From a phage: a stretch of DNA of 64,000 nucleotides. Below the pieces are notes generated by a model. It saw only the letters and a program-made list of their open reading frames with translations, was not told where the DNA came from and did no database searches. The DNA is taken from the sequence record PZ172995.1; one strand, given 5' to 3'. Within the stretch, counting starts at the first letter, position 1, and each line of letters begins with the position of its first letter. Shown in pieces: positions 8,956 to 18,694 of this stretch. Both the position numbers and the translations under genes were made by a program.

Positions 8956-9098
8956 AGATAATCCTCTTGTCTTCTGTAATTTTGAAAGAACAGGTACAGA
9001 CCAATTTCAGAGGATGAATAGTAGAGTAACTCTACCCTTTTTGATTCCTTACAGTGATTGGTATTTTTACCTTTCTTCGGGTTGTTTGATTTTCTCAT
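8937..9098 (-). CDS. hypothetical small basic protein
   Basis: Track start 9119 not supported; ATG at 9098 has AAGGAG RBS. Confidence 0.5.
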   Translation of the reverse strand: MRKSNNPKKGKNTNHCKESKRVELLYYSSSEIGLYLFFQNYRRQEDYLCVVPN

Positions 9099-9192
9099 TA
9101 AGTCTCCTTTGTAGAACAAGGCAGACCTACAGCTTTAAGTAAGATGGTACAGTAATCCATACAACAAGTCAAGAACTATTGCAAGTTAAAAA

Positions 9193-9220
9193 AGTTGTTG
9201 ACAAAGTACTTGACAAGGTG
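9193..9220 (+). promoter_or_regulatory. conserved 24-nt element with tandem TTGACAA (GTTGACAAAGTACTTGACAAGGTGT) in the divergent switch region
   Basis: Near-identical copy at 51326-51353 in the other divergent switch region; contains two -35-like hexamers. Confidence 0.55.
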
Positions 9221-9347
9221 TAGGCTTATAAATACTTAGAAGATAACTTAAAAGGTTCCTCTAAAAAGGCTATTTAAACAGATATCTTTCTGGATATCTA
9301 TCTTTTATCTTAAAAGCCTTTTAAGAGGTCTTATAAGAGGCATACCA

Positions 9348-9719
9348 ATGAAAAACAGAACAAACAAAGGCCAGTTTAAAAAAGGCCAGTCTGGAAACCC
9401 ATCTGGAAGACCAAAAGGCTCTCGTAACAAAAGCTCACTCGTAAAAGCTCAACTGACCATTGACAATTCTGCTGAGTTTGCTGCAAAGTTGTTTGAAGCA
9501 ATTGTTACAAGGGACGCTGCTAAGCTTGCAGAGTTCGGGTTAAACACAGATGACGTAACCATCAAGAGCATGATTGAGGTCGGTAAAACTATCTTTACTC
9601 ACTCAGCAGGTGAGATGAAAGCACTTGCAGCAGACACTAAGAAGACTTCTGATAATGGTGGTCAGTCACAGACAGATAACAAACCAACGTTCTCTGCTGT
9701 AGCGACTCTCAAAAAATAA
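9348..9719 (+). CDS. hypothetical protein with basic Gly/Pro-rich N-terminus (KKGQSGNPSGRPKG)
   Basis: ORF with AGAGG RBS; first gene of the rightward block. Confidence 0.65.
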   Translation: MKNRTNKGQFKKGQSGNPSGRPKGSRNKSSLVKAQLTIDNSAEFAAKLFEAIVTRDAAKLAEFGLNTDDVTIKSMIEVGKTIFTHSAGEMKALAADTKKTSDNGGQSQTDNKPTFSAVATLKK

Positions 9720-9731
9720 TTTTAAAAGGTG

Positions 9732-9767
9732 TTGACAGACTCTACAAAGTTGCTCTAAAGTCTGTCA
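9732..9767 (+). promoter_or_regulatory. sigma70-like promoter (TTGACA, 18-nt spacer, TAAAGT) overlapped by a 9-bp inverted repeat
   Basis: TTGACA at 9732-9737; TGACAGACT at 9733-9741 and AGTCTGTCA at 9759-9767. Confidence 0.5.
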
Positions 9768-9800
9768 CATCAAACAACAAATGAGAGAAGAGAGTAAAAT

Positions 9801-11216
9801 ATGAGCGAATTATTTAAACATGCGCACCTTCATGCAGGTCGAACTGAAAATGGTGCTGTAAACCATACTTCATCAATGTCTGCTCTGGTGGACTTTTACA
9901 AAGCCGCTGGCTCAAGCCGTAGCAATGTAGAAATCTTACCAGACCTGTTCTACAAAGCTTTGCGTGAGGATGTTGATGTTGCAGTTCGTATTTTACTGCA
10001 TATGCGAGATGTACGAGAAGGTATGGGTGAGCGTAAAGCTTTCCGAACTGTTTTACTTCAAGCGATTGAAGATAAGGTTTTAGAACCTACACAGGTTCTT
10101 CGCATTATGGATAAGATTGCAGAACTTGGTCGTTTTGATGACTTCAAAATCTTCGTAGGCACTCGTTTTGAGACAGATGCCTTCAAACATTTAGAAGCAG
10201 CATTACTAGACCCTGCAACAGCAGGTTTAGCAGCTAAGTGGTTACCACGAGTAAAACCACGCCACAAACAGTTTGTAAAACGTTTCTGTAAGTTTGCAAA
10301 CTTAAGCGAGAAGGAGTATCGCACACTGTTATCTGCACTGTCTGATACGGTTGAGCAAAAAATCTCTGCTAATGAGTTTGGTAAGATTGACTACAGCAAG
10401 GTTCCTTCACTCGCTGCTGCACGTTACCAAAAACTCTTTAACCGTAAAGATGGGGAACGTTACAAAGCTTACGTTGAGTCACTCTCAAAGGGTGAGGCTA
10501 AGATTAACGCTGGTGCTGTTTACCCATACGATGTGATTAAATCTATCAAGTATGGTAATGCAGATGTGGCTAATGAGCAGTGGAAAGCACTACCAAACTG
10601 GATGGCAGAAGGTGAGAACATCTTGTGTATGACTGATGTTTCAAGTTCAATGTCTTGGGTGAGTCTTGGTTCAATCACTGCCCTTGATGTTGGTGTATCC
10701 CTTGCCTTGTATGTAGCAGAACGCAACACAGGTTGCTTTAAAGATGAGTTAATGGTCTATTCAACAAACCCTCATTTCATTGAACTGAGTGGTGATTTAC
10801 GAAACCGTCATCGTCAGGTAATGCGTCATGTTGAATATGGTTCAACTAACTTACAAGCAGCTTTTGACCGCATTCTTGAAATAGGTAAGAGAAACAACTT
10901 GACTCAGAAAGATATGCCAAGTAAGCTTATTATCTTCTCTGATATGGAGTTTAATCAGGTTGATGGTGCAAATGGTCGTACAAACTTTGAAGCAATTCAG
11001 AGTAAGTACAAAAAAGCTGGATACGAAATGCCACAACTAGTATTCTGGTACTTAGCAAACCGTAATGGTACTTGCGAAGTATCTGTTAAGGATAATGGTG
11101 TAGCAATGGTATCAGGGTTCTCTCCAGCCACTTTAAAAGCTCTGCTTGGTGGTGAGAAGTTTGACCCAATCAGCGTAATGCTCAAAGCAGTAATGATTGA
11201 CCGTTACATCTGGTAA
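9801..11216 (+). CDS. DUF2828-like protein with C-terminal vWA/MIDAS-like motif (possible TROVE/Ro60-like fold)
   Basis: N-terminal RTENGAVNHTSSMSAL motif and DVSSSMS (DxSxS) motif in the 471-aa translation; strong RBS; family assignment from recalled signatures, not a search. Confidence 0.6.
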   Translation: MSELFKHAHLHAGRTENGAVNHTSSMSALVDFYKAAGSSRSNVEILPDLFYKALREDVDVAVRILLHMRDVREGMGERKAFRTVLLQAIEDKVLEPTQVLRIMDKIAELGRFDDFKIFVGTRFETDAFKHLEAALLDPATAGLAAKWLPRVKPRHKQFVKRFCKFANLSEKEYRTLLSALSDTVEQKISANEFGKIDYSKVPSLAAARYQKLFNRKDGERYKAYVESLSKGEAKINAGAVYPYDVIKSIKYGNADVANEQWKALPNWMAEGENILCMTDVSSSMSWVSLGSITALDVGVSLALYVAERNTGCFKDELMVYSTNPHFIELSGDLRNRHRQVMRHVEYGSTNLQAAFDRILEIGKRNNLTQKDMPSKLIIFSDMEFNQVDGANGRTNFEAIQSKYKKAGYEMPQLVFWYLANRNGTCEVSVKDNGVAMVSGFSPATLKALLGGEKFDPISVMLKAVMIDRYIW

Positions 11217-11228
11217 AAAGTTTTAAAA

Positions 11229-11263
11229 AGGGTATTGACAATGTGTTTGATACCCTTTAATAT
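11229..11263 (+). promoter_or_regulatory. sigma70-like promoter (TTGACA, 17 nt, TAATAT) with flanking palindrome, upstream of tRNA array
   Basis: TTGACA 11235-11240, TAATAT 11258-11263; AAGGGTAT / ATACCCTT inverted repeat around the -35. Confidence 0.6.
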
Positions 11264-11324
11264 GTTCTACATAGAAACGAAATGAGAGCTTTTCTAAGAT
11301 ACTGAAAAATATTTTAAAAAGTTC

Positions 11325-11353
11325 TTGACAACCACTAAAAAATAATGTTAAAG
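11325..11353 (+). promoter_or_regulatory. second sigma70-like promoter (TTGACA, 18 nt, TAAAGT) upstream of tRNA array
   Basis: Same -35, spacer and -10 pattern as the promoter at 9732. Confidence 0.5.
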
Positions 11354-11380
11354 TGGTTACATAGAGTTTGAAAAGTTTAT

Positions 11381-11457
11381 CTCTGTTTAGCTCAGCTTGG
11401 TAGAGCGTTCCGTTTGGGGCGGTAAGGCCGGAGGTTCAAGTCCTCCAACAGAGACCA
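11381..11457 (+). tRNA. tRNA-Pro (TGG)
   Basis: Hand-folded cloverleaf: acceptor CTCTGTT/AACAGAG, anticodon loop TTTGGGG, T-arm GGAGG-TTCAAGT-CCTCC, CCA encoded. Confidence 0.75.
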
Positions 11458-11464
11458 AATTAAT

Positions 11465-11542
11465 GTTCCAGTAGACAAAACGGTAAAGTCACCACTCTTT
11501 CAAAGTGGATATTTGAGGGTTCAAATCCCTTCTGGAACGCCA
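11465..11542 (+). tRNA. tRNA-Glu (TTC)
   Basis: Acceptor GTTCCAG/CTGGAAC, anticodon stem CCACT/AGTGG with loop CTTTCAA, T-loop TTCAAAT, CCA encoded. Confidence 0.75.
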
Positions 11543-11547
11543 GTTTT

Positions 11548-11623
11548 GACAGAAGACCAATTACAGCAAACTTAATCTACTCATCTGACACGAAATCGGA
11601 CAAAGAAGATATTTGGTCTGGTC
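11548..11623 (+). ncRNA. conserved hairpin element, copy 1 (basal stem CAGAAGACC / GGTCTGG, loop with CAGCAA)
   Basis: GACAGAAGACCA pairs with TGGTCTGGTC around a loop of about 50 nt; same stem in three further copies. Confidence 0.5.
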
Positions 11624-11632
11624 ATTAAGAAT

Positions 11633-11709
11633 TGCGGGTATAGAGAAAGGGCGTCTCACATGTCTCATTAGCATGGTATCGGCAGGTTCGACTCCTGCAC
11701 CCGCCTCCA
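11633..11709 (+). tRNA. tRNA-Met (CAT), irregular acceptor stem
   Basis: D-stem GAGA/TCTC, anticodon stem CATGT/GCATG with loop CTCATTA, T-arm GCAGG-TTCGACT-CCTGC; acceptor pairing imperfect. Confidence 0.55.
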
Positions 11710-11714
11710 ATTTT

Positions 11715-11778
11715 GCAGAAGACCGTATGCAGCAACAAACTACTTTTTTTGCGGATAAAAGAAAAAACACGGTCTGGC
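11715..11778 (+). ncRNA. conserved hairpin element, copy 2
   Basis: GCAGAAGACCG ... CAGCAA ... CGGTCTGGC. Confidence 0.5.
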
Positions 11779-11788
11779 AATATATTAA

Positions 11789-11865
11789 GGTTAGGAAGCA
11801 CATAAGGTATGTGCGGTCGCCTGTTAAGCGAATGGCACAGGGTTCGAATCCCTGACTAACCGCCA
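11789..11865 (+). tRNA. tRNA-Asn (GTT)
   Basis: D-stem GCAC/GTGC, anticodon loop CTGTTAA, T-arm CAGGG-TTCGAAT-CCCTG, CCA encoded. Confidence 0.7.
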
Positions 11866-11874
11866 AATTTAAAT

Positions 11875-11962
11875 GTGTCGTTATCCCGTAGATGGTAGCG
11901 GTGGGGACTGTAAATCCCTTGTCATTGAGACTCGGTAGGTTCGACTCCTACACGGCACACCA
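11875..11962 (+). tRNA. tRNA-Tyr (GTA), long variable arm
   Basis: Acceptor GTGTCGT/ACGGCAC, anticodon loop CTGTAAA, long variable arm, T-arm GTAGG-TTCGACT-CCTAC, CCA encoded. Confidence 0.7.
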
Positions 11963-11968
11963 AATAAA

Positions 11969-12046
11969 GGTTATGTAGTTTAATCTGGTTAAAATACTCC
12001 CCTGTCACGGGAGATGATGAGGGTTCAAATCCCTTCGTAACCGCCA
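11969..12046 (+). tRNA. tRNA-Asp (GTC)
   Basis: Anticodon stem CTCCC/GGGAG with loop CTGTCAC, T-arm GAGGG-TTCAAAT-CCCTT, CCA encoded. Confidence 0.8.
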
Positions 12047-12129
12047 AATTATAATAAGTATTTCAAAATGATGTTTGAGAGGGCTATTTAGCCCCTCCCT
12101 TAAAGAGTTCTTACGAGTATTCTTTAAAG

Positions 12130-12212
12130 GAGCAGAAGACCAAATTCAGCAAGTACGTATGATATTTTCAAGCCAATTTAATTTTGAAAAAATTTAAAAC
12201 TTGGTCTGGCTC
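12130..12212 (+). ncRNA. conserved hairpin element, copy 3
   Basis: GAGCAGAAGACCAA pairs with TTGGTCTGGCTC; loop contains CAGCAA. Confidence 0.5.
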
Positions 12213-12221
12213 AACAAATTT

Positions 12222-12357
12222 ACAGAAGACCGTTTACAGCAAAACTTAAACAATCTATTTCTCCGGTAAAGAAAAGGCGAAGGTTCGATTCCTTCACTCG
12301 GCAGATGTCGAGTTGGTGTAATGGTAGCACTTAAGATGACAAACAACGGTCTGGTAA
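12222..12357 (+). ncRNA. conserved hairpin element, copy 4, enclosing a tRNA-like module (T-arm hairpin, acceptor-like hairpin, D-arm-like hairpin); candidate Y-RNA-like RNA
   Basis: Basal stem ACAGAAGACCGTT / AACGGTCTGGTA; inside: GAAGG-TTCGATT-CCTTC (12279-12295), ACTCGGC-AGAT-GTCGAGT (12296-12313), GTGT-AATGGTA-GCAC (12316-12330). Confidence 0.45.
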
Positions 12358-12503
12358 TTATCTTTGTAGGTGAGCTATTAAGCTTACTTGTGAGTATGCG
12401 ACCACAAAGGGTGAAAGGGCAAATTCTAGATTTAAACCCAACAAGGCACATCGCTACAGACCTTAAGCAAGTCTGGGTAGCTTATCTACAAAGATAATTT
12501 AAT

Positions 12504-12579
12504 GGAAGTGTAGCAGAATGGTGATGCGGCAGACTTTTAATCTGACAGGCGATGGGTTCGAATCCCTCCACTTCTACCA
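12504..12579 (+). tRNA. tRNA-Lys (TTT)
   Basis: Acceptor GGAAGTG/CACTTCT, anticodon loop CTTTTAA, T-loop TTCGAAT, CCA encoded; paralogous to the Lys(CTT) tRNA at 13820. Confidence 0.7.
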
Positions 12580-12583
12580 ATAT

Positions 12584-12660
12584 GGTTCAGTCGCAGATAA
12601 GGTAATGCAGGGGTCTCATAAGCCCTATGAATGTGGGTTCGATTCCCATCTGAACCTCCA
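12584..12660 (+). tRNA. tRNA with CAT anticodon (Met or lysidine-Ile)
   Basis: Acceptor GGTTCAG/CTGAACC, anticodon loop CTCATAA, T-arm GTGGG-TTCGATT-CCCAT, CCA encoded. Confidence 0.7.
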
Positions 12661-12661
12661 A

Positions 12662-12737
12662 GCTGGTATAGTTAAGAAGGTTATAACACTCCCCTGATAA
12701 GGGAATATCGGTGGTTCGATTCCACCTACCAGTACCA
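12662..12737 (+). tRNA. tRNA-Ile (GAT)
   Basis: D-stem GTTA/TAAC, anticodon loop CTGATAA, T-arm GGTGG-TTCGATT-CCACC, CCA encoded. Confidence 0.75.
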
Positions 12738-12752
12738 ATTTCAATAAAGTTG

Positions 12753-12781
12753 TTGACATTGATATGTGACTATTTTATAGT
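12753..12781 (+). promoter_or_regulatory. sigma70-like promoter (TTGACA, 17 nt, TATAGT) inside the tRNA array
   Basis: TTGACA 12753-12758, TATAGT 12776-12781; downstream about 300 nt has no tRNA or ORF. Confidence 0.55.
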
Positions 12782-12832
12782 AACTGAAAATGATTCAGCA
12801 TATGTATAATTCAAACACCAATACATGAGCGT

Positions 12833-12904
12833 TAGACGTAACACAATGTGGGGAAATTTGTTGTACATATTCTGAATAGTTTTCGTTGCGTAGCGTCTAT
12901 TTTG
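12833..12904 (+). terminator. putative structured element ending in a T-run (possible sRNA 3' end)
   Basis: TAGACG ... CGTCTA stem enclosing about 55 nt, followed by TTTTGC. Confidence 0.3.
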
Positions 12905-13074
12905 CAAATTTAAAATAAATGCAAACGACAATGTTTTTCTGGCAGTAGCTTGATAGGCTAAACACCAGTGAGGTCTTCCAATCCCTCATCAAAGAATTTG
13001 GCGTACTAGCCCACGGTATGATTAATAAGGTGGGCATCTTTAAGGGCTTTCTAAGAGAGTCTTTAAAGATTAAT

Positions 13075-13151
13075 GCACCCTTAGTTCAATTGGATAGAGC
13101 AACGGTCTTCTAAATCGTTAGTTACAGGTTCGAATCCTGTAGGGTGTGCCA
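13075..13151 (+). tRNA. tRNA-Arg (TCT)
   Basis: Acceptor GCACCCT/AGGGTGT, anticodon loop CTTCTAA, T-arm ACAGG-TTCGAAT-CCTGT, CCA encoded. Confidence 0.75.
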
Positions 13152-13293
13152 AATAGTTAGCAGATTGCTTAGACGACCTTATCGGGTCTCCGCGTAAGGA
13201 GGTGGTCTGTATCTCATGTTTTCCAGAACATGTAAATAATCTGAGAAGGGGCTTTACAGTGTTGCGAAAATACGGTAAGCTTCGAATTATAGT

Positions 13294-13376
13294 GTGGGAC
13301 GATGTTAAGACTCTAAGGCATGAGCAACGGCCTCCAAAACCGTTTCAAAGGGGTTCAACTCCTCCGTCCCATGCCA
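13294..13376 (+). tRNA. tRNA-Trp (CCA)-like, atypical length and D-region
   Basis: Acceptor GTGGGAC/GTCCCAT, anticodon loop CTCCAAA, T-loop TTCAACT, CCA encoded; about 7 nt longer than canonical. Confidence 0.45.
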
Positions 13377-13389
13377 AAGTCTTATTAGG

Positions 13390-13477
13390 GGTAGGTAGCG
13401 GCTAATGGCAGCCAAACAGTCTTGAAAACTGTTGCAACTGTAGAGATACGGTGAGGGTTCGACTCCTTTACTTACCA
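13390..13477 (+). tRNA. tRNA-Ser (TGA), long variable arm
   Basis: Acceptor GGTAGGT/ACTTACC, anticodon stem ACAGT/ACTGT with loop CTTGAAA, variable arm about 20 nt, T-loop TTCGACT. Confidence 0.7.
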
Positions 13478-13634
13478 CCTAATAAGATTTTACACCGTCC
13501 ATGCTTGCTCGCATTTTCGGTTTATCCCTCGTGTATTGTCGTACACACTGATAAAGCACCTAGTAGGTGTCACGGAGAAGAGATAATATCAAGCTCTCCA
13601 AAGGTTCTAGTCACCGGATTAAACAAGACTATGC

Positions 13635-13656
13635 AAAGACCAATTTAGGTCTTTTT
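13635..13656 (+). terminator. putative Rho-independent terminator
   Basis: AAAGACC-AATTTA-GGTCTTT followed by TTT. Confidence 0.45.
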
Positions 13657-13735
13657 AGAGGGCTTCTAAGGTTATTACAGCTTGTTGTGGAACCTTGTTG
13701 CTTAGGTTCTTAGAAGTTCTCTAAAAAGATTTAAT

Positions 13736-13812
13736 GCACCTATAGCCCAACTGGTAGAGGCAGCAGACTTAGAATCTGCTCAGTGTGAGTTCGAATCTCT
13801 CTAGGTGTACCA
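13736..13812 (+). tRNA. tRNA with TAG anticodon (Leu by anticodon), short variable arm
   Basis: Acceptor GCACCTA/TAGGTGT, anticodon stem GCAGA/TCTGC with loop CTTAGAA, T-loop TTCGAAT, A73, CCA encoded. Confidence 0.65.
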
Positions 13813-13819
13813 AATTAAT

Positions 13820-13895
13820 GCAGGTGTAGCAAAATGGTTATGCGGCTGACTCTTAATCAGTAAGACGATGGGTTCAATTCCCTCCACCTGTACCA
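13820..13895 (+). tRNA. tRNA-Lys (CTT)
   Basis: Acceptor GCAGGTG/CACCTGT, anticodon loop CTCTTAA, T-loop TTCAATT, CCA encoded. Confidence 0.7.
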
Positions 13896-13901
13896 AACAT
13901 T

Positions 13902-13977
13902 GGGGTCATAGTTTATATGGTTAAAATTCGAGTTTTGCAAACTTGGGAACTGAGTTCAATTCTCAGTGACTCCACCA
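13902..13977 (+). tRNA. tRNA-Ala (TGC)
   Basis: Acceptor GGGGTCA/TGACTCC, anticodon loop TTTGCAA, T-arm CTGAG-TTCAATT-CTCAG, CCA encoded. Confidence 0.7.
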
Positions 13978-13983
13978 ATTAGT

Positions 13984-14058
13984 GCATCCATAGTTTAAAC
14001 GGGAAAATTACAGTCTTCCAAACTGAGGTTGAGGGTTCGATTCCCTCTGGATGCTCCA
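13984..14058 (+). tRNA. tRNA-Gly (TCC)
   Basis: Acceptor GCATCCA/TGGATGC, anticodon loop CTTCCAA, T-loop TTCGATT, CCA encoded. Confidence 0.75.
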
Positions 14059-14065
14059 AATTAAT

Positions 14066-14141
14066 GCTCCTATCGTATAATTGGCTATTACGGTTGCCTT
14101 GTAAGTAACTTATCAGGGTTCGAATCCTTGTGGGAGCACCA
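14066..14141 (+). tRNA. tRNA-Thr (TGT)
   Basis: Acceptor GCTCCTA/TGGGAGC, anticodon loop CTTGTAA, T-arm CAGGG-TTCGAAT-CCTTG, CCA encoded. Confidence 0.7.
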
Positions 14142-14238
14142 ATTTAGAGGTCAAGTGAAAGACCGCTTTGAGTCAACTGAAGACCGTAACAAATCCCACG
14201 GAGTTGAGTTAGCGGCACAACTTCAGACCTCTTTCCAC

Positions 14239-14313
14239 ACTCGCTTAGTTTATATGGTAAAACATCACCCTTACAAGATGAAGAAAAAGGTTCAAGTCCT
14301 TTAGTGAGTACCA
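14239..14313 (+). tRNA. tRNA-Val (TAC)
   Basis: D-stem GTTT/AAAC, anticodon loop CTTACAA, T-arm AAAGG-TTCAAGT-CCTTT, CCA encoded. Confidence 0.7.
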
Positions 14314-14314
14314 T

Positions 14315-14392
14315 GTTCCAGTATCCCAATTGGCAGAGGATGCAAGCTCAAACCTTGCACTAGTGACGGTTCGAATCCGTCTTGGAACACCA
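14315..14392 (+). tRNA. tRNA with CAA anticodon (Leu by anticodon), short variable arm
   Basis: Acceptor GTTCCAG/TTGGAAC, anticodon stem GCAAG/CTTGC with loop CTCAAAC, T-arm GACGG-TTCGAAT-CCGTC, A73, CCA encoded. Confidence 0.65.
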
Positions 14393-14397
14393 ATTTT

Positions 14398-14473
14398 GCA
14401 GGATTAGTTCAAATGGATAGAGCAACAGTCTACGAAGCTGTTAATAGGGGTTCGAGTCCCTTATCCTGCGCCA
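14398..14473 (+). tRNA. tRNA-Arg (ACG)
   Basis: Acceptor GCAGGAT/ATCCTGC, anticodon loop CTACGAA, T-loop TTCGAGT, CCA encoded. Confidence 0.75.
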
Positions 14474-14491
14474 GATAAGTAAGAGTGATTT

Positions 14492-14734
14492 ATGCAAACA
14501 TTAATCGTCGTTGAACATGAAAATTCCAATAGCATTGAGTTTGTAAGGGTTCCCACTATAGATACCCACATTTTCTTGAAAGTAGGCTGGGAATGTGACC
14601 CAATAAGAGTAGAAAAATTTATTGGTCATTACTTTGGTGGAAGACAACTTAAAAGTGTTAATTTTGAGACAATGTTACCAGAAAACTCAGAAACAAATAA
14701 TAATGTTTACCTCCTTACAAGGATTAGACAATGA
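14492..14734 (+). CDS. hypothetical protein encoded inside the tRNA array
   Basis: ORF with RBS; ATGA overlap with the next gene. Confidence 0.5.
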   Translation: MQTLIVVEHENSNSIEFVRVPTIDTHIFLKVGWECDPIRVEKFIGHYFGGRQLKSVNFETMLPENSETNNNVYLLTRIRQ

Positions 14735-15288
14735 GATATTTGAAGTATGTTTCATGGATTTTCTTAGCTTTGCTAGAGCCATTTGCAGCAATCTTAGCAG
14801 TCATCTTAGCACCTTTTGTAGTTCTATTCTACAGTGAGAAGAGAGGACACTTACCTTTCGGCTTCAGATGGATGGAAACATATGATAACCCAATTGATGG
14901 TGATAAAGGTCATGTCGAACGATGGGCTAAGATTAGAAAGATTGGTAAGCTTGGTATCTATATGCAGAGAGTTGGTTGGCTCTGGAGAAACAAAGCTTAT
15001 AACTTCTCTTACCATGTGTTAGGAAGAGATGTAAAAGATGTTACTAAGTGGAAAGGTAATATCAATGTAAGTTCTAACCCTGAAGATAATCAGACAGGTT
15101 ATCTCCTAATGTGGAACAGTAATGCTTGGGGATTATTCGCTTTTATCCCATCAATTAAACTCTTTGGTAAGCAATTCTACTGGAGAATTTATGTTGGATG
15201 GAAACTTAAAAGTGTTGTTCCAAAAGAAAGAGCATTCTCAAGGGAAAGAGTTATGTTGGCATTCTTTATTCATCCACTGAGAAAGTAA
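14731..15288 (+). CDS. hypothetical Trp-rich membrane protein encoded inside the tRNA array
   Basis: N-terminal hydrophobic helix WIFLALLEPFAAILAVILAPFVVLF in the 185-aa translation. Confidence 0.6.
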   Translation: MRYLKYVSWIFLALLEPFAAILAVILAPFVVLFYSEKRGHLPFGFRWMETYDNPIDGDKGHVERWAKIRKIGKLGIYMQRVGWLWRNKAYNFSYHVLGRDVKDVTKWKGNINVSSNPEDNQTGYLLMWNSNAWGLFAFIPSIKLFGKQFYWRIYVGWKLKSVVPKERAFSRERVMLAFFIHPLRK

Positions 15289-15296
15289 AGATTTAA

Positions 15297-15372
15297 AGGG
15301 GATTAGTTTACAAGGTTAAAACCTCGGTCTTTGAAATCGAAGAAGTTGGTTCAATTCCAACATCCCCCGCCA
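15297..15372 (+). tRNA. tRNA-Gln (TTG)
   Basis: Anticodon stem TCGGT/ATCGA with loop CTTTGAA, T-arm GTTGG-TTCAATT-CCAAC, CCA encoded. Confidence 0.7.
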
Positions 15373-15374
15373 AT

Positions 15375-15453
15375 GCTCCATTACTCCAATTGGCAGAGAG
15401 GCCAGACTTAAAATCTGTGTTATGTATCGGTTCGAATCCGATATGGAGTACCA
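15375..15453 (+). tRNA. tRNA with TAA anticodon (Leu by anticodon), short variable arm
   Basis: Acceptor GCTCCAT/ATGGAGT, anticodon loop CTTAAAA, T-arm ATCGG-TTCGAAT-CCGAT, A73, CCA encoded. Confidence 0.65.
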
Positions 15454-15458
15454 AATTT

Positions 15459-15534
15459 AGCGGTATAGCATAACTGGCAATGCAGCAGTCTCTGAAGCTG
15501 TCTTATTAAGGTTCAAATCCTTATGCCGCTGCCA
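15459..15534 (+). tRNA. tRNA-Gln (CTG)
   Basis: D-stem GCAT/ATGC, anticodon loop CTCTGAA, T-arm TAAGG-TTCAAAT-CCTTA, CCA encoded. Confidence 0.7.
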
Positions 15535-15565
15535 CTTCTAAGGATTCTTACGAGAGTCCTTAAAT

Positions 15566-15641
15566 GTGGCCTTATCATAAATGGTAATGACCCATGCTGT
15601 GAACATGGTCTATACGGGTTCAAATCCCGTAGGTCACCCCA
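15566..15641 (+). tRNA. tRNA-His (GTG)
   Basis: D-stem TCAT/ATGA, anticodon stem CCATG/CATGG with loop CTGTGAA, T-arm ACGGG-TTCAAAT-CCCGT, CCA encoded. Confidence 0.75.
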
Positions 15642-15646
15642 ATTTA

Positions 15647-15723
15647 TAGTCCAAGTAGCTTATATGGTTAAAGCGCGTGTCTGAAAAACATGAGAAGAGG
15701 GTTCAAATCCCACTGGACTACCA
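15647..15723 (+). tRNA. tRNA-Phe (GAA)
   Basis: Acceptor TAGTCCA/TGGACTA, anticodon stem CGTGT/ACATG with loop CTGAAAA, T-loop TTCAAAT; linker lengths slightly irregular. Confidence 0.65.
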
Positions 15724-15739
15724 ATTTCAAAGGTGCTTA

Positions 15740-16474
15740 ATGAAAGAGATGACAGGACAAGGTAAGGAGATTTTTAATCTCTTAAAAACCGGTAGAGGGT
15801 TTTCTAATCCCCTTATTACTGGTGCAGCAGTTCTCGGTGGAACCGTAGCTGCCTCTACATCACTTGTAAGCTCTATTAGCTCTGTAACAGACCCTACAAT
15901 AAAGGATAAACTTGTTGCCGCTGGACTTACAACAGTTCTGCTTAACAGCTTTACAACGAGTCTGACAAGCACTACATCCACCACTAAGACATTGACAGAT
16001 TACGGTCAAAAATCAATTGATGAGTTTTCATCACGTATGCAGGTAGCAAAAGGATATTCCAATGTTATGGGTGCAGCAGGAGAGCAAGTTGGTTGTACAC
16101 CATTTAGTGGTATTATGGGTGTTGCTACAGAATATGGTCAAAAAGCTATTGACACGATTAACAACACGTTAGACAGTGTTAACGGCGTGTTAAGTGACTT
16201 ACAGGATGCTATTGATAAAGGTCTTGATACTGTTTCTGATTTAGCTAACCAAGCTGTTAGCAAGATTAATGAAGGTATCTCGAAGATTACAGCTTATGCA
16301 GATGAAGTTGTGCAGATGATTGAAGAAGAAGCTGCCCTTATTGCAGAGTACCTTAAAACGAATATCAATGGGTTCTTAGCAGGTATTTTACCAGACTGGT
16401 TTGATGATGCTTGTAAAACTGGTGTGATTGACACTATTGCAACACCAGAAATGAAGAACGCATTACAGAAATAA
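15740..16474 (+). CDS. hypothetical Ser/Thr-rich protein encoded inside the tRNA array
   Basis: Track start 15677 lies inside tRNA-Phe; ATG at 15740 has AAAGGTG RBS; low-complexity S/T region then a helical C-terminal half. Confidence 0.6.
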   Translation: MKEMTGQGKEIFNLLKTGRGFSNPLITGAAVLGGTVAASTSLVSSISSVTDPTIKDKLVAAGLTTVLLNSFTTSLTSTTSTTKTLTDYGQKSIDEFSSRMQVAKGYSNVMGAAGEQVGCTPFSGIMGVATEYGQKAIDTINNTLDSVNGVLSDLQDAIDKGLDTVSDLANQAVSKINEGISKITAYADEVVQMIEEEAALIAEYLKTNINGFLAGILPDWFDDACKTGVIDTIATPEMKNALQK

Positions 16475-16475
16475 T

Positions 16476-16568
16476 GGAAGATTAACCCTAAAAGGTAAGG
16501 GAGCAGTTTGCTAAACTGCCAGTAGCTGAGAAATCGGTGTACCAGTTCAAGTCTGGTATCTTCCCCCA
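16476..16568 (+). tRNA. tRNA-Ser (GCT), long variable arm
   Basis: Acceptor GGAAGAT/ATCTTCC, anticodon stem GCAGT/ACTGC with loop TTGCTAA, variable arm about 21 nt, T-arm ACCAG-TTCAAGT-CTGGT, CCA encoded. Confidence 0.75.
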
Positions 16569-16572
16569 ATTT

Positions 16573-16648
16573 GAATCCGTGACAGAAATGGCTATGTGCC
16601 TGTCTGCAAAACAGGTTTATAAGGGTTCGAGTCCCTTCGGATTCTCCA
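16573..16648 (+). tRNA. tRNA-Cys (GCA)
   Basis: Acceptor GAATCCG/CGGATTC, anticodon stem CCTGT/ACAGG with loop CTGCAAA, T-arm AAGGG-TTCGAGT-CCCTT, CCA encoded. Confidence 0.8.
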
Positions 16649-16685
16649 AGTTATTTTACTCTCTCTCAATTAAAATAATAATAAT

Positions 16686-16746
16686 GCCCTGCTATAAGTA
16701 TTCTTCCTTTCGCTACCGAAGAGTATTTTTAGACAGGGCTTTTTTA
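16686..16746 (+). terminator. putative terminator (long imperfect hairpin plus T-run) after the tRNA array
   Basis: GCCCTG ... CAGGGC followed by TTTTTT. Confidence 0.45.
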
Positions 16747-16810
16747 CAGAGTTATACTTTATAAGAAGGCTTATACAGTATGTCTCTGACGTACATTGTG
16801 GTTTCTCCTT

Positions 16811-16834
16811 GACGGTCTCTGTACCGTCTTTTTT
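16811..16834 (+). terminator. Rho-independent terminator after the tRNA array
   Basis: GACGGT-CTCTGT-ACCGTC followed by TTTTTT. Confidence 0.75.
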
Positions 16835-16870
16835 AAGGGGAAACATGGTTAATTATTTGGAGAAAACATA

Positions 16871-17071
16871 ATGAGTGAGACCGTTTATAAAGAACTTTAT
16901 GAAGCTAACAAAAAGCTAGAATTTATGCAGAACACTATCATGGCAATTGCAGATAGATTGTCTGTAGCAACAGGTATTGATATCAAAGAAGCCTCTATGG
17001 ATACACTTCTTGATGCTGTTGATGCAAAGTTCGAAGTTAAGAAAGAAGAGACTGCTACAGACTCTGAATAA
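16871..17071 (+). CDS. hypothetical small acidic protein immediately upstream of the large terminase
   Basis: ORF with GGAGAAA RBS; position would fit a small terminase partner but sequence is uninformative. Confidence 0.5.
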   Translation: MSETVYKELYEANKKLEFMQNTIMAIADRLSVATGIDIKEASMDTLLDAVDAKFEVKKEETATDSE

Positions 17072-17092
17072 TTCTATTTGCGGAGGTGCTTA

Positions 17093-18694
17093 ATGGACTT
17101 AAATGCTGTTAAGCAGAAGCGAGTGGAAGATGTTAGGAAAGTCCTAGCTGGAGAGTTGGGGCTTTCTGATGAAGTAAAAGAAATTATCAAATCATTCGGT
17201 AAAGACCCCTCTAAATTCCTTCCAACTCAAATTCTGACTTTATTAAGATACACACCAGACCAAGTTAGACTTATCTTCAAATTGATGACTGATAAGAACT
17301 ATGTAGCCCCTCAGCCGGGTTCTCAAGAGGTGTTTTTAAATACTAATGCTGACTTGGTTTTATATGGTGGTGCTGCTGGTGCTGGTAAAACTGCTGCATT
17401 GTTAATGGACTCTTTAAGGTTTATTGAAGACCCTAACTATAATGCTGTATATTTCCGTCGAAATACAACACAGTTACAAGGTGGTTTATGGCCTGCTGCA
17501 AAGAAACTATTTGGTAAGTTTGGTGGGGTTCCGCACGAGCAGAAGATGACTATCACATTCCCTTCTGGGGCAACTATCAAGTTCACCTACCTAGAACTTG
17601 AAAAGCACGCTGAAGGTCATCAGGGTATTGAATACTCAGCTATCTATTTTGACGAAGGTACACACTTCTCTGCTTCACAGATTTCATACCTACAGACCCG
17701 TCTACGTTCTGGTGCTGAAGGTGACTCATACATGAAGATTTCTATGAACCCAGATAGAGACCACTTCATTTATGATTGGGTAGAACCATTCTTAGATGAA
17801 GAAGGTTACCCAGACCCTGAGAAGTGCGGTCGTATTCGTTGGTATGTTATGAATGATGGTGTGATGGTTTCTGATTGGGAGAGAGACAAGATTCTTGAAA
17901 TGTTCCCTCTTGAGATTCCTCAGACATACACCTTCATCTCTGGTACGATTGATGATAACCCAATTCTTGACTTCTTAGAACCTAAATATCGTGGTAAGTT
18001 GGAAAACAACACACCTGTAAACGTTGCAAGACTTCGTTTCGGTAACTGGAAGGCTCGTGCAGAAGGTTCAAACTATTGGCAAAGACAATGGTGTGAGATT
18101 GTTGATTCACTCCCAGAAGATGTGTTTGATGTCAGAGCATGGGACTTAGCAGCAACTTTACCATCTGAGATTAACCCTAATCCAGACTGGACAGCAGGTG
18201 TTAAGATGGGTAAATCTAAAAAAGACGGTTGCTATTATATCATTGATGTAGTAAGATTTAGAGATAGACCCTCTGGAGTCGAAACACAAATTAATTTGAC
18301 TGCTGAAAGTGACGGTAAGCGAACTGGTATTTTTATCCCTCAAGACCCAGGCGCTGCTGGTAAATCCTATGCAACATCCCTCATCAGGAAACTTGCCGAG
18401 AAAGGTTATCGCGCAAGAGCTAAACCAACAAATAAAGATAAAGTTACCCGCTTTGCGGGATTTTCTGCTGCTTCTGAAGCTGGACTTGTAAAAGTCTTGA
18501 GAGGAAGTTGGAACGAAGCTTATTTCCAAGAACTTGAAGGTTTTTGTGGTGATGGCAAAACTAAAGATGACCAAGTGGATGCTACCAGTGATGCTTTCAA
18601 CAGTCTTAACGAAGTTAAATTATTCAAGCCACCATCAATGGGTGCTCACACAGACTTAGTGAGAGGAAACCCATACGAGGGGCTTAGACGTTGA
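17093..18694 (+). CDS. terminase large subunit
   Basis: Walker A GGAAGAGKT and Walker B IYFDEGTH in the translation; C-terminal nuclease-like domain; ATG at 17093 with GGAGGTG RBS (track start 17078 is TTG). Confidence 0.9.
   Translation: MDLNAVKQKRVEDVRKVLAGELGLSDEVKEIIKSFGKDPSKFLPTQILTLLRYTPDQVRLIFKLMTDKNYVAPQPGSQEVFLNTNADLVLYGGAAGAGKTAALLMDSLRFIEDPNYNAVYFRRNTTQLQGGLWPAAKKLFGKFGGVPHEQKMTITFPSGATIKFTYLELEKHAEGHQGIEYSAIYFDEGTHFSASQISYLQTRLRSGAEGDSYMKISMNPDRDHFIYDWVEPFLDEEGYPDPEKCGRIRWYVMNDGVMVSDWERDKILEMFPLEIPQTYTFISGTIDDNPILDFLEPKYRGKLENNTPVNVARLRFGNWKARAEGSNYWQRQWCEIVDSLPEDVFDVRAWDLAATLPSEINPNPDWTAGVKMGKSKKDGCYYIIDVVRFRDRPSGVETQINLTAESDGKRTGIFIPQDPGAAGKSYATSLIRKLAEKGYRARAKPTNKDKVTRFAGFSAASEAGLVKVLRGSWNEAYFQELEGFCGDGKTKDDQVDATSDAFNSLNEVKLFKPPSMGAHTDLVRGNPYEGLRR

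What the first reader, a model, noticed from the sequence alone, without database searches (positions are those of the whole stretch)
9801..12357. Candidate phage Ro60/Y-RNA-like module: DUF2828-like vWA protein next to tRNA-like structured RNAs
The 471-aa product of 9801..11216 has an N-terminal TENGA-type motif and a DxSxS MIDAS-like motif (DVSSSMS), the domain layout I associate with the DUF2828 family and with Ro60 (TROVE plus vWA). It sits directly upstream of a roughly 27-gene tRNA array, separated from it by two promoters. About 1 kb downstream is a 136-nt element (12222-12357) closed by a long basal stem and enclosing a T-arm hairpin, an acceptor-like hairpin and a D-arm-like hairpin. 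A basal stem plus a tRNA-like module is the architecture described for bacterial Y RNAs that bind Ro60 orthologs. This would be a phage-encoded RNP that could act in RNA quality control or tRNA surveillance during infection.
Basis: partly seen in the sequence, partly recalled or inferred. Interest (0 to 1): 0.85.

Follow-up and report, generated by a model that had tools for sequence, protein, structure and literature searches.

The report
Phage Ro60-like protein with Y-like RNAs
A Felix O1-type phage encodes a distant structural relative of the RNA-binding protein Ro60 next to four small structured RNAs, one of them a rearranged tRNA, and the same protein–RNA pairing recurs in very different phages, so the RNAs are probably the protein's unrecognised partners.

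Summary

It is 97% identical to Bas63 gp130. A 2024 preprint showed that gp130 counters the Ppl defence and noted its Ro60 fold.

The tRNA operon downstream holds four unannotated RNAs: E1 11547-11624, E2 11713-11780, E3 12130-12212 and E4 12220-12357. They share a "handle": a 4-bp stem, a 3x1 internal loop, a 7-8-bp stem, then an invariant CAGCAA.

E4 also carries a complete circularly permuted tRNA with a capped acceptor stem, the layout of bacterial YrlA Y RNAs. Covariation is strong: 11 of 12 handle pairs and 26 of 30 E4 pairs show compensatory changes.

The same RNA lies beside DUF2828 genes, on the same strand, in phages of Enterobacteria, Bacillus, Listeria, Campylobacter and Mycobacterium. 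In 62 distant loci it is 22-fold enriched within 500 nt of the gene.

Protein–RNA binding is inferred, not shown. gp130 alone suffices against Ppl. I file it as a new variant of the Ro60/Y-RNA kind.

The parts
9732..9761 (+). sigma70-like promoter in front of the Ro60-like gene
   Evidence: TTGACA-18-TAAAGT, 10/12 matches. The same site is annotated as a promoter in phage AYO145A. This is a consensus match only.
9801..11216 (+). Gene for a 471-aa Ro60-like protein (DUF2828 helical ring plus DUF7788/vWA with a MIDAS motif); ortholog of Bas63 gp130
11235..11354 (+). Two tandem sigma70-like promoters (11235-11263, 11325-11354) that start the tRNA/small-RNA operon
   Evidence: 10/12 matches each. 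No terminator-like site on the + strand between here and tRNA-Ile at 12737.
11547..11624 (+). E1: handle-only RNA (UGAC/AGA/AGACCAA..CAGCAA...UUGGUCU/G/GUCA), lying between tRNA-Glu and tRNA-Met
   Evidence: Motif searches. Fold. Descriptor scans. R1 34.4 bits. Present at the same position in all Ounavirinae loci examined.
11713..11780 (+). E2: handle-only RNA (UUGC/AGA/AGACCGU..CAGCAA...ACGGUCU/G/GCAA), lying between tRNA-Met and tRNA-Asn
   Evidence: R1 47 bits, R2 41.5 bits.
12130..12212 (+). E3: handle-only RNA (GAGC/AGA/AGACCAA..CAGCAA...UUGGUCU/G/GCUC)
   Evidence: Not reported by the tRNA-weighted models R1 and R2 at the thresholds used (E<=1; E<=0.001).
12220..12357 (+). E4: handle plus a complete circularly permuted tRNA (YrlA-like Y RNA candidate)
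   Evidence: R1 118.7 bits, R2 105.5 bits. RNAalifold gives 19 of 26 pairs compensatory. 26 of 30 pairs compensatory on 28 sequences. The un-permuted sequence is called tRNA-Thr(GGU) by ARAGORN.
12220..12242 (+). E4 handle, 5' side: outer stem 12220-12223, AGA bulge 12224-12226, inner stem 12227-12234, invariant CAGCAA 12237-12242
   Evidence: Sequence. Handle alignment A2: 11 of 12 pairs with compensatory change; CAGCA invariant and the final A in 31 of 32 elements.
12258..12274 (+). E4 anticodon-arm-like hairpin UUUCU-CCGGUAA-AGAAA (5-bp stem, 7-nt loop; relatives have a CU-NNN-AA loop)
   Evidence: Accepted by ARAGORN as the anticodon arm.
12279..12295 (+). E4 T arm GAAGG-UUCGAUU-CCUUC
   Evidence: 5 pairs, 100% paired, 4 of them with compensatory changes.
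12296..12313 (+). E4 acceptor-like 7-bp stem closed by the loop AGAU (3' strand ACUCGGC, 5' strand GUCGAGU)
   Evidence: All 7 pairs covary. In relatives the loop reads discriminator + CCA + spacer.
12316..12330 (+). E4 D arm GUGU-AAUGGUA-GCAC, preceded by a U8-like U at 12314
12345..12357 (+). E4 handle, 3' side: inner stem 12345-12352, bulged G 12353, outer stem 12354-12357

Best explanation
This is a phage version of the Ro60/Y-RNA module.

Protein. The 471-aa protein is a very divergent Ro60: a helical TROVE-like ring plus a vWA domain with a MIDAS motif.

RNAs. E1-E4 are small non-coding RNAs transcribed with the first tRNAs of the array from the promoters at 11235 and 11325. Because they sit 3-8 nt from the neighbouring tRNAs, tRNA end-processing would release them as discrete RNAs of roughly 70-140 nt (inferred).

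Handle. All four carry the same handle: a 4-bp stem, a 5' AGA / 3' G internal loop, a 7-8-bp stem and a single-stranded CAGCAA. I infer this is the docking site for the Ro60-like protein, as the bulged stem is in Y RNAs.

Variable parts. The apical part differs between copies. E1-E3 carry short A/U-rich loops, like YrlB-type Y RNAs. E4 carries a whole tRNA body with a capped acceptor stem, like YrlA. I infer that these parts connect the protein to other factors, such as host exoribonucleases or tRNA-binding proteins, or gate its RNA-binding cavity.

What is shown and what is inferred. Shown here: the fold, the RNA structures, their covariation, and their recurrent same-strand adjacency to the gene. 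Taken from the literature: the orthologous protein gp130 of Bas63 counters the Ppl defence system. Inferred: protein-RNA binding, biogenesis by tRNA processing, and any tethering or gating role.
For: Protein fold.
- AF2 model pLDDT 90.3.
- Foldseek: the 12 best PDB hits are all Ro60/TROVE over the full length, E 2e-8 to 5e-7, TM up to 0.67.
- The MIDAS residues are invariant.

RNA family.
- Four copies share exact 5' and 3' motifs in the window.
- Handle: 11 of 12 pairs show compensatory change, covariation 0.785 against 0.216 in shuffles.
- E4 type: 94% of cells paired, 26 of 30 pairs compensatory, covariation 0.846 against 0.218, slid controls at most 0.14.
- Five hand-joined (un-permuted) modules are all called as cloverleaf tRNAs.

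Association with the gene.
- Model R1 found full-length, same-strand hits in untrained loci whose protein is only 40-46% identical: L062, L025, L021, L083, L032, L075, L043 and L041.
- It also hit mycobacteriophages LeBron and Wilder, and R2 hit Bacillus phage PJN02.
- 8 of 14 best hits lie within 200 nt of the gene, P = 4e-9 under a uniform model.
- The handle descriptor gives 59 plus-strand hits within 500 nt of the gene in 39 of 62 distant loci, 0.97 per kb against 0.043 per kb farther away, and only 6 on the minus strand.
- Handles also sit next to the gene in Listeria List-36 and Campylobacter F365.
- L021 has four copies and no tRNA genes, so the link is to the gene, not to tRNA arrays.

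Link to known Y RNAs.
- Rfam YrlA hits the LeBron element at 39.8 bits, E 1e-5.
- YrlA has the same T arm, capped acceptor stem, D arm order and lies within 4 kb of Ro60 on the same strand (PMC4201824).
- Thermus phage Ro60 binds two adjacent Y-like RNAs (PMC12135203).
- The Bas63 authors noted the Ro60 fold of gp130 and guessed that Y RNAs hide among the tRNAs.
- Listeria phage context: RtcB and an RNA ligase lie next to the gene. From my own knowledge, this echoes the bacterial rsr-yrlBA-rtcBA arrangement.
Against: - There is no binding or expression data for E1-E4.
- gp130 expressed alone, from a plasmid or from the T7 genome, restores T7 growth on a ppl strain. Its one known activity therefore needs no phage RNA.
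- The handle lacks the GNCGAAN0-1G / GGUCCGA motif of YrlA and animal Y RNAs. The GGCGAAGG at 12276-12283 lies in the T-stem region and is not conserved in relatives.
- Rfam YrlA does not detect anything in the window at E <= 1.
- Pfam TROVE does not hit the protein.
- 23 of 62 distant loci, including KVP40-like Vibrio phages, show no handle near the gene.
- Single-sequence folding z-scores are weak.
- The handle alignment was assembled by requiring pairing, which inflates 'percent paired', though not the diversity of pair types.
Confidence: 0.68

Rival explanations
1. E1-E4 are real structured RNAs that work independently of the Ro60-like protein. They could be tRNA-like decoys or sponges for host tRNA-targeting defence nucleases (E4). 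They could instead be processing or stability elements of the tRNA operon, with the handle serving another factor such as a host RNase or a different phage protein.
For: - The elements are embedded in a tRNA operon and spaced like tRNA genes.
- E4-type modules keep canonical anticodon loops (CU-NNN-AA) whose anticodon differs between phages: Thr, Ser, Arg, Glu, Met.
- gp130 acts against Ppl without these RNAs.
- Phage tRNAs are thought to counter tRNA nucleases, as cited in the Bas63 preprint.
Against: - The handle tracks the DUF2828 gene rather than tRNA arrays. It is 22-fold enriched within 500 nt of the gene and on the same strand.
- It is present in loci without tRNA genes: L021 has none, and Wilder's only annotated tRNA is part of the element itself.
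- Many tRNA-rich stretches in the loci have no handle.
- A processing signal would not need an invariant single-stranded CAGCAA conserved from enterobacterial phages to phages of Bacillus and Mycobacterium.
Confidence: 0.2
2. E4 is a permuted tRNA gene whose transcript is matured into a functional decoding tRNA-Thr(GGU). Maturation would cut out the handle, join the ends, and open the acceptor loop.
For: - The 3' part of a tRNA precedes the 5' part, and the rejoined sequence is a canonical cloverleaf.
- The acceptor stem has 7 bp, the RNase P determinant named in PMC4201824.
- Several relatives keep discriminator + CCA in the loop.
- One GenBank record annotates a 131-nt tRNA-Thr(GGT) here.
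Against: - The window's copy has no CCA (its loop is AGAU), whereas the phage's tRNA genes inspected (Pro, Glu, Met, Asn) encode CCA.
- Its loop reads CCGGUAA, so U33 is lost.
- The anticodon identity is not conserved among orthologous elements, and one relative (L015) has a 5-nt loop.
- The handle is a 3x1 internal loop, not a bulge-helix-bulge.
- From my own knowledge, no bacterial tRNA-splicing endonuclease pathway is known.
- E1-E3 carry the same handle with no tRNA inside it.
Confidence: 0.03
3. The region holds decaying tRNA pseudogenes, or small minus-strand protein genes as annotated in some genomes, with no RNA function.
For: - A minus-strand ORF 12194..12451 (85 aa) exists.
- The equivalent is annotated as a hypothetical protein in AYO145A and Bas63.
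- Some tRNA finders see only fragments here.
Against: - Compensatory base changes occur in nearly every helix across phages of several bacterial phyla.
- CAGCAA is invariant.
- The minus-strand ORF is not conserved in length: 85 aa here, split into 50-aa and 36-aa ORFs in Bas63.
- The elements occur in positions where no ORF is annotated in other genomes.
Confidence: 0.02

Closest known systems
Bacterial Rsr (Ro60) with YrlA/YrlB Y RNAs (Salmonella Typhimurium, Mycobacterium smegmatis; Rfam RF02553; Chen et al. 2014, PMC4201824)
   Same: - A Ro60-fold protein, with the RNAs encoded within a few kb on the same strand.
- At least two RNAs per locus. One has a tRNA-like domain in the order T arm, capped acceptor stem, D arm, closed by a long stem. 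The others are simple hairpins.
- A 7-bp acceptor stem, as in M. smegmatis YrlA, which RNase P cleaves.
- A relative of the RNA (LeBron) is weakly hit by the YrlA model.
   Different: - The protein is not detectable as TROVE by sequence; it belongs to DUF2828.
- The RNA lacks GNCGAAN0-1G. It has a 3x1 loop and an invariant CAGCAA instead.
- The tRNA-like part is a complete tRNA that includes an anticodon-type arm.
- The window's E4 does not reach any Rfam YrlA score.
- The RNAs lie inside a lytic phage's tRNA operon.
Thermus phage phiLo phiRo60 with Yrl1/Yrl2 (NAR 2025, PMC12135203)
   Same: - A proposed role against host functions through recruitment of host PNPase.
   Different: - phiRo60 is a canonical TROVE protein.
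- Its RNAs were picked by the CGAA motif and have no reported tRNA body.
- Binding is experimentally shown there and not here.
Bas63 (phage JohannRWettstein) gp130, counter of the Ppl defence system (bioRxiv 10.1101/2024.10.10.617714)
   Same: - It is the same protein: 97% identical, in the same position upstream of tRNA-Pro.
   Different: - They did not identify any RNA, and suggested that annotated tRNAs might be the Y RNAs.
- The candidates found here are unannotated gaps, or stretches mis-annotated as minus-strand ORFs bas63_0137/0138.
- Their data show the protein works against Ppl without phage RNAs.
Animal Ro60 with Y RNAs (Xenopus structure 1YVP)
   Same: - Several paralogous small RNAs that share a conserved bulged stem and differ in the apical part.
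   Different: - No sequence similarity in either partner.
- Animal Y RNAs have no tRNA body.
- The conserved stem sequence differs: GGUCCGA-type against AGAC..CAGCAA.
Circularly permuted tRNA genes of the red alga Cyanidioschyzon merolae (from my own knowledge)
   Same: The 3' half of a tRNA is encoded upstream of the 5' half, joined through the acceptor ends by a short spacer.
   Different: - Those genes yield functional tRNAs through a bulge-helix-bulge motif and a circular intermediate.
- Here the break is at 26/27 and is occupied by a conserved non-BHB handle.
- CCA and anticodon identity are not conserved.
- The same handle also occurs without any tRNA inside it.

Membership tests
Pfam DUF2828 + DUF7788 | Scores above the gathering thresholds of PF11443 and PF25043 | tested here: met
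   103.1 bits (cut-off 29) and 149.4 bits (cut-off 27.1).
Ro60 / TROVE family | Sequence match to the TROVE domain (PF05731) or to solved Ro60 proteins | tested here: not met
   No TROVE hit at E <= 0.1. phmmer and a 58-sequence profile against all PDB sequences found no Ro60. No NCBIfam hit.
Ro60 / TROVE family | Helical-repeat TROVE ring followed by a vWA domain (overall fold) | tested here: met
   [not shown]
Ro60 / TROVE family | MIDAS motif (DxSxS ... T ... D) in the vWA domain | tested here: met
   D279, S281, S283, T349 and D381 are invariant in 58 homologues.
Ro60 / TROVE family | Binds Y RNAs on the outer surface and misfolded RNA ends in the central hole | not testable with these tools
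   Needs RIP/CLIP, EMSA or a solved structure.
YrlA (Rfam RF02553) | Score at or above the Rfam gathering threshold (69 bits) | tested here: not met
   No YrlA match in window 9000-18000 even at E <= 1. The related LeBron element scores 39.8 bits, E 1e-5.
YrlA (Rfam RF02553) | tRNA-like domain in the order T arm, capped acceptor stem, D arm, enclosed by a long 5'-3' stem | tested here: met
   The same topology appears in the Rfam YrlA consensus line.
YrlA (Rfam RF02553) | GNCGAAN0-1G motif near the 5' end (the proposed Rsr contact) | tested here: not met
   The conserved 5' motif is C-AGA-AGAC...CAGCAA. GGCGAAGG at 12276-12283 lies in the T-stem region and is absent from orthologues such as L013 and L086.
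YrlA (Rfam RF02553) | Encoded within about 4 kb of the Ro60 gene on the same strand | tested here: met
   E1-E4 start 0.33-1.0 kb downstream of the stop codon, on the + strand. The same holds in other phages.
YrlA (Rfam RF02553) | Co-purifies with the Ro60 orthologue and depends on it for accumulation | not testable with these tools
   An experiment is needed.
Functional permuted tRNA gene | A complete cloverleaf after rejoining the halves | tested here: met
   ARAGORN calls all 5 hand-rejoined modules as tRNAs. The joins were chosen by me.
Functional permuted tRNA gene | A 3' CCA, or the means to expose it, and a conserved anticodon identity and loop | tested here: not met
   The window's loop is AGAU with no CCA, and its anticodon loop reads CCGGUAA. 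Anticodons differ among orthologues.
Functional permuted tRNA gene | A bulge-helix-bulge processing motif at the transcript ends | tested here: not met
   The handle is a 4-bp stem, a 3x1 internal loop and a 7-8-bp stem.

The most novel reading that the evidence does not exclude
The E4-type RNAs may be more than passive tRNA look-alikes. RNase P would open the capped 7-bp acceptor stem, as it does in M. smegmatis YrlA. That would leave a two-piece tRNA held together by the handle on the Ro60-like protein, with a free CCA-type end and a canonical anticodon loop.

The RNP would then present a bait tRNA. Its anticodon has been swapped repeatedly between phages (Thr, Ser, Arg, Glu, Met). The bait would absorb or sense host tRNA-targeting defence nucleases, or be aminoacylated. 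On this reading the module is a programmable tRNA decoy or sensor that is widespread in lytic phages.
Probability: 0.12. Interest if true: 0.85.

Novelty: new variant of a known kind. Interest (0 to 1): 0.62.

Why it matters
DUF2828 proteins are common in phages. tblastn found 710 of about 50,700 GenBank phage records, from phages of Escherichia, Salmonella, Vibrio, Listeria, Staphylococcus, Campylobacter, Bacillus and Mycobacterium. One member has a demonstrated and transferable counter-defence activity.

If the handle RNAs are its partners, three things follow:
- A large, unannotated class of phage non-coding RNAs gains a name and a testable role.
- The Ro60/Y-RNA paradigm extends to a protein family that sequence methods do not link to Ro60.
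- A concrete reagent set becomes available: four RNAs, one invariant hexamer and a covarying stem. With it one can ask how a Ro60-type RNP helps a lytic phage, and whether the RNA regulates the anti-Ppl activity.

The result also corrects existing annotation, namely spurious minus-strand ORFs, a '131-nt tRNA-Thr', and a 'tRNA-Asn' in phage Wilder.

Tried and rejected
- Exact Felix-type motifs (AGAAGACC ... GGTCTGG) in 65 distant loci gave only terminator-like chance pairs. I replaced them with structure-based descriptors and covariance models.
- A loose descriptor had a high background, about 45 hits in shuffled loci against 140 observed. It was far too noisy once one mismatch was allowed, so I did not use it for counting.
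- Sequence searches linking the protein to Ro60 all failed: phmmer and a profile against PDB, Pfam TROVE, NCBIfam and PADLOC. Only fold comparison worked.
- Rfam found no Y-RNA family in the window.
- ARAGORN on doubled interiors did not recognise the permuted tRNA, because the linkers to the handle remain. Clean hand-made joins were recognised.
- A second-generation model, R2, added Bacillus phage PJN02 but no further IMG/VR loci. The simple handle descriptor was more sensitive for handle-only elements.
- Tandem tRNA genes give false model hits of up to about 49 bits (L059). I therefore checked hits below about 50 bits by eye, or did not count them.
- The supplementary tables of Chen et al. 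2014 and two Y-RNA reviews were not available. I could not check whether LeBron-type phages were among their 22 phages.
- Single-sequence MFE z-scores for E1-E4 are not significant, and I do not use them as evidence.

Full report
**Where the window comes from.** The region 9300-12800 is 96-98% identical to many Felix O1-like phages (Felixounavirus, Ounavirinae) of Escherichia and Salmonella. The gene order is conserved even in relatives whose protein is only 52-63% identical. It runs DUF5681 gene, DUF2828 gene, a 3-5 kb stretch with few or no called genes that holds the tRNA array, DUF7217 gene, terminase.

**The protein.**
- ORF 9801-11216 encodes 471 aa.
- It belongs to Pfam DUF2828 + DUF7788, with a weak VWA_2 hit, and to PHROG 850 'RNA-binding protein'.
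- Sequence methods do not connect it to Ro60. There is no TROVE hit, no Ro60 among PDB sequences with either the single sequence or a 58-member profile, and no NCBIfam or PADLOC hit.
- An AlphaFold2 model built on 58 homologues is confident: pLDDT 90.3, pTM 0.90.
- Foldseek against the PDB returns only Ro60/TROVE proteins as its 12 best hits. These are Xenopus Ro60, Thermus phage phiLo Ro60 and Deinococcus Rsr. They align over the full length with E 2e-8 to 5e-7 and TM up to 0.67. Isolated vWA domains follow at E > 1e-3.
- The MIDAS residues D279, S281, S283, T349 and D381 are invariant, as are T15/N17/G18 of the N-terminal TENGA motif.
- The family is common. tblastn finds it in 710 GenBank phage records, and the mycobacteriophage members are already annotated 'Ro-like RNA binding protein'.

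**What is known experimentally.**
- The protein is 97% identical to bas63_0130 of phage JohannRWettstein (Bas63), which has the same position upstream of tRNA-Pro.
- A 2024 preprint (10.1101/2024.10.10.617714) identified gp130 as a counter of the Ppl defence system.
- The preprint showed that gp130 alone, from a plasmid or inserted in T7, rescues T7 on a ppl strain.
- It named no RNA.

**The RNAs in the window.**
- Four plus-strand elements share an exact 5' motif, AGAAGACC-N5-CAGCAA, at 11551, 11717, 12134 and 12224. They share an exact 3' motif, GGTCTGG, at 11615, 11771, 12203 and 12348.
- Each folds into the same handle: an outer 4-bp stem, a 5' AGA / 3' G internal loop, and an inner stem AGACCNN/NNGGUCU.
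- The outer stem differs between the paralogues in a compensatory way: UGAC/GUCA, UUGC/GCAA, GAGC/GCUC, UUAC/GUAA.
- The elements are E1 11547-11624, E2 11713-11780, E3 12130-12212 and E4 12220-12357.
- E1 and E2 lie 3-8 nt from their flanking tRNA genes, and E3 ends 7 nt before E4. E3 itself starts 83 nt after tRNA-Asp, and E4 is followed directly by E5.
- They sit downstream of two promoter-like sites (11235 and 11325), with no terminator-like site before tRNA-Ile. Release by tRNA end-processing is therefore a reasonable inference.
- Single-sequence folding energies are unremarkable, z -1.3 to -1.8.

**E4 is a permuted tRNA.** Between the two handle strands E4 holds, in this order:
- an anticodon-arm-like hairpin (12258-12274);
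- a 4-nt variable region;
- a T arm (12279-12295);
- the 3' acceptor strand, a 4-nt loop and the 5' acceptor strand (12296-12313);
- U-G, then a canonical D arm (12316-12330).

When I moved the acceptor 5' strand and D arm in front of the rest and removed the handle and linkers, ARAGORN called a normal cloverleaf. It gave tRNA-Thr(GGU) for the window and Ser(GCU), Arg(UCU), Met(CAU) and Ser(GCU) for four relatives. I chose the joins by hand.

In several relatives the acceptor loop reads discriminator + CCA + a short spacer, for example CGCUCCC-A-CCA-ACUAU-GGGAGUG in L086. This points to an origin from two tandem tRNA genes.

The layout is that of YrlA: closing stem, then T arm, capped acceptor stem, D arm (PMC4201824). 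It matches the structure line of Rfam YrlA.

**Conservation and covariation.**
- All Ounavirinae loci examined carry the same four elements in the same order, with variable interior lengths.
- More distant relatives keep the architecture but change the stems. These are Yersinia phage P778 and metagenomic contigs L085-L093, including phages of about 145 kb. Inner stems include AGACU/AGUCU, AGUAUC/GAUACU, AGCUUC/GAAGCU, GGACUGU/ACAGUCC and AGAAGCU/AGCUUCU. CAGCAA stays 10 nt after the start of the stem.
- On 32 distinct handles, 11 of 12 pairs show changes on both sides. Covariation is 0.785 against 0.216 in shuffles (0 of 500) and at most 0.24 for slid partners. These elements were collected by requiring pairing, so the percentage paired is partly circular. 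The diversity of pair types is not.
- For the E4 type, RNAalifold recovers the handle, T arm, acceptor stem and D arm, with 19 of 26 pairs compensatory.
- On 28 model-aligned sequences, 94% of cells pair and 26 of 30 pairs show compensatory change. Covariation is 0.846 against 0.218, with slid controls at most 0.14.

**Association with the gene.**
- A covariance model built from 12 E4-type sequences (R1) found full-length, same-strand hits in loci it had not seen, where the protein is only 40-46% identical. Scores were L062 91 bits, L025 73, L021 four copies at 40-67, L083 three copies, L032 62, L075 59, L043 two copies, and L041 56.
- It also hit mycobacteriophages Wilder (68 bits) and LeBron (53 bits), just downstream of their 'Ro-like' genes.
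- A second model, R2, added Bacillus phage PJN02.
- The printed alignments of the eight best distant hits show the handle with CAGCAA or a one-base variant: CCGCAA in L025 and CAGCAC in L043.
- Eight of the 14 best hits lie within 200 nt of the gene, P about 4e-9 under a uniform model, and all are on the gene's strand.
- A simple handle descriptor requires a stem of at least 6 bp with G second, CNGCAA 9-11 nt after the stem start, and C-N then G at the 3' end.
- Applied to 62 distant loci, this descriptor gives 59 plus-strand hits within 500 nt of the gene in 39 loci. It gives 26 hits in the tenfold larger remainder, 0.97 against 0.043 per kb, and only 6 hits on the minus strand.
- The same descriptor finds three tandem handles directly upstream of the gene in Listeria phage List-36. 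It finds one directly upstream in Campylobacter phage F365, and three directly downstream in LeBron and in Wilder.
- L021 has four elements and no tRNA genes. The association is therefore with the gene rather than with tRNA arrays.
- No handle was found near the gene in 23 of the 62 distant loci. KVP40-like Vibrio phages are among those without one.

**Relation to known Y RNAs.**
- Rfam contains YrlA (RF02553). It hits the LeBron element at 39.8 bits, below the gathering score of 69, with E 1e-5.
- It hits nothing in the window at E <= 1.
- The YrlA signature GNCGAAN0-1G is absent from the handle.
- The RNA is therefore best described as a divergent relative or analogue of YrlA with its own conserved motif. 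It is not a member of the curated family.
- Known precedents are YrlA/YrlB next to Rsr in bacteria and in 22 phages with annotated TROVE proteins (PMC4201824), and phiRo60 with Yrl1/Yrl2 in a Thermus phage, which also engages host PNPase (PMC12135203).
- M. smegmatis YrlA has a 7-bp acceptor stem. It is cut by RNase P and receives CCA, and both halves remain bound to Rsr. E4 has the same 7-bp stem.

**Interpretation.** The most economical reading is a Ro60/Y-RNA-type module. The handle is the protein-docking element. E1-E3 are short Y RNAs and E4 is a tRNA-mimicking one.

Binding, biogenesis and downstream partners are inferences. The main caution is that the one measured activity of the protein, anti-Ppl, does not need the phage RNAs. 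The RNAs may therefore regulate or redirect the protein rather than be required for it, or they may serve another function. I put 0.68 on the partnership, about 0.2 on RNAs that act independently of the protein, and little on functional permuted tRNAs or on junk.

**Novelty.** The kind is known: Ro60 with Y RNAs, including in phages. The Ro60-like fold of this particular protein was noted in 2024. I found three things in none of the papers or annotations I could search:
- the identification of the actual RNA candidates;
- their distinctive handle with CAGCAA and the complete permuted tRNA;
- their recurrence beside DUF2828 genes in phages of Proteobacteria, Firmicutes, Campylobacterota and Actinobacteria.

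Noticed in passing
window 12358-12500 (+): A fifth structured element ('E5') lies directly after E4 and before tRNA-Lys. It is 143 nt and closed by a stem of about 22 bp. MFE is -46.7 kcal/mol, z -5.6, with 0 of 200 shuffles folding as well. It has no handle, but it contains a small hairpin CAGAC-CUUAAGCAA-GUCUG. It is present in only some Ounavirinae (coverage patterns). It could be an RNase III-type processing site or another ncRNA.
   Followed up: partly
window 12194-12451 (-); L094 3749-4023 (bas63_0137/0138); L002 3396-3653: Minus-strand 'hypothetical protein' ORFs annotated in several genomes overlie E3/E4/E5. Their length is not conserved: 85 aa here, 50 and 36 aa in Bas63. They are probably spurious calls over RNA genes.
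   Followed up: partly
L003 399-529 (phage REP7); L096 6510-6580 (phage Wilder): Public records annotate a 131-nt 'tRNA-Thr GGT' across E3/E4 and a 'tRNA-Asn' inside the Wilder element. Both are tool artefacts caused by the permuted tRNA.
   Followed up: yes
L097 (Listeria phage List-36) 4265-11455: Here the DUF2828 gene sits with a tRNA array, a 'tRNA splicing ligase' (RtcB-type annotation), an RNA ligase and an HD phosphohydrolase. From my own knowledge, this RNA-repair neighbourhood resembles the bacterial rsr-yrlBA-rtcBA operon. Three handle elements lie just upstream of the gene.
   Followed up: partly
L019-L093, many loci: DUF2828 genes are very often next to same-strand tRNA arrays, and in four loci within about 6 kb of a phage tmRNA gene. 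KVP40-like Vibrio phages (L019, L020) have the gene and tRNAs, but no handle was detected near the gene.
   Followed up: partly
L084 (Yersinia phage P778) 9965-10665: Two orphan T-arm-containing segments (...GACGAGGGTTCGATTCCCTCC... and ...GTTGGGTTCGATTCCCTACAGG...) lie in a 690-nt gap that ARAGORN does not call as tRNA. They may be further tRNA-derived RNAs or interrupted tRNA genes.
   Followed up: no
window 12786-13074 (+): Weak, sub-threshold Rfam matches to permuted tmRNA (22 bits, E 0.26) and tmRNA (15 bits) fall in another gene-free gap of the tRNA region. They are probably chance or reflect tRNA-like fragments.
   Followed up: no
L090 12393-13652: An IS605 OrfB/TnpB-type gene lies inside the tRNA region of a phage contig of about 143 kb that also carries the DUF2828 gene and several handle RNAs.
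   Followed up: no
window 9348-9719 (+): A DUF5681 gene (123 aa) immediately precedes the Ro60-like gene. It stays there in relatives down to 52% protein identity. Whether it belongs to the same functional module is unknown.
   Followed up: no
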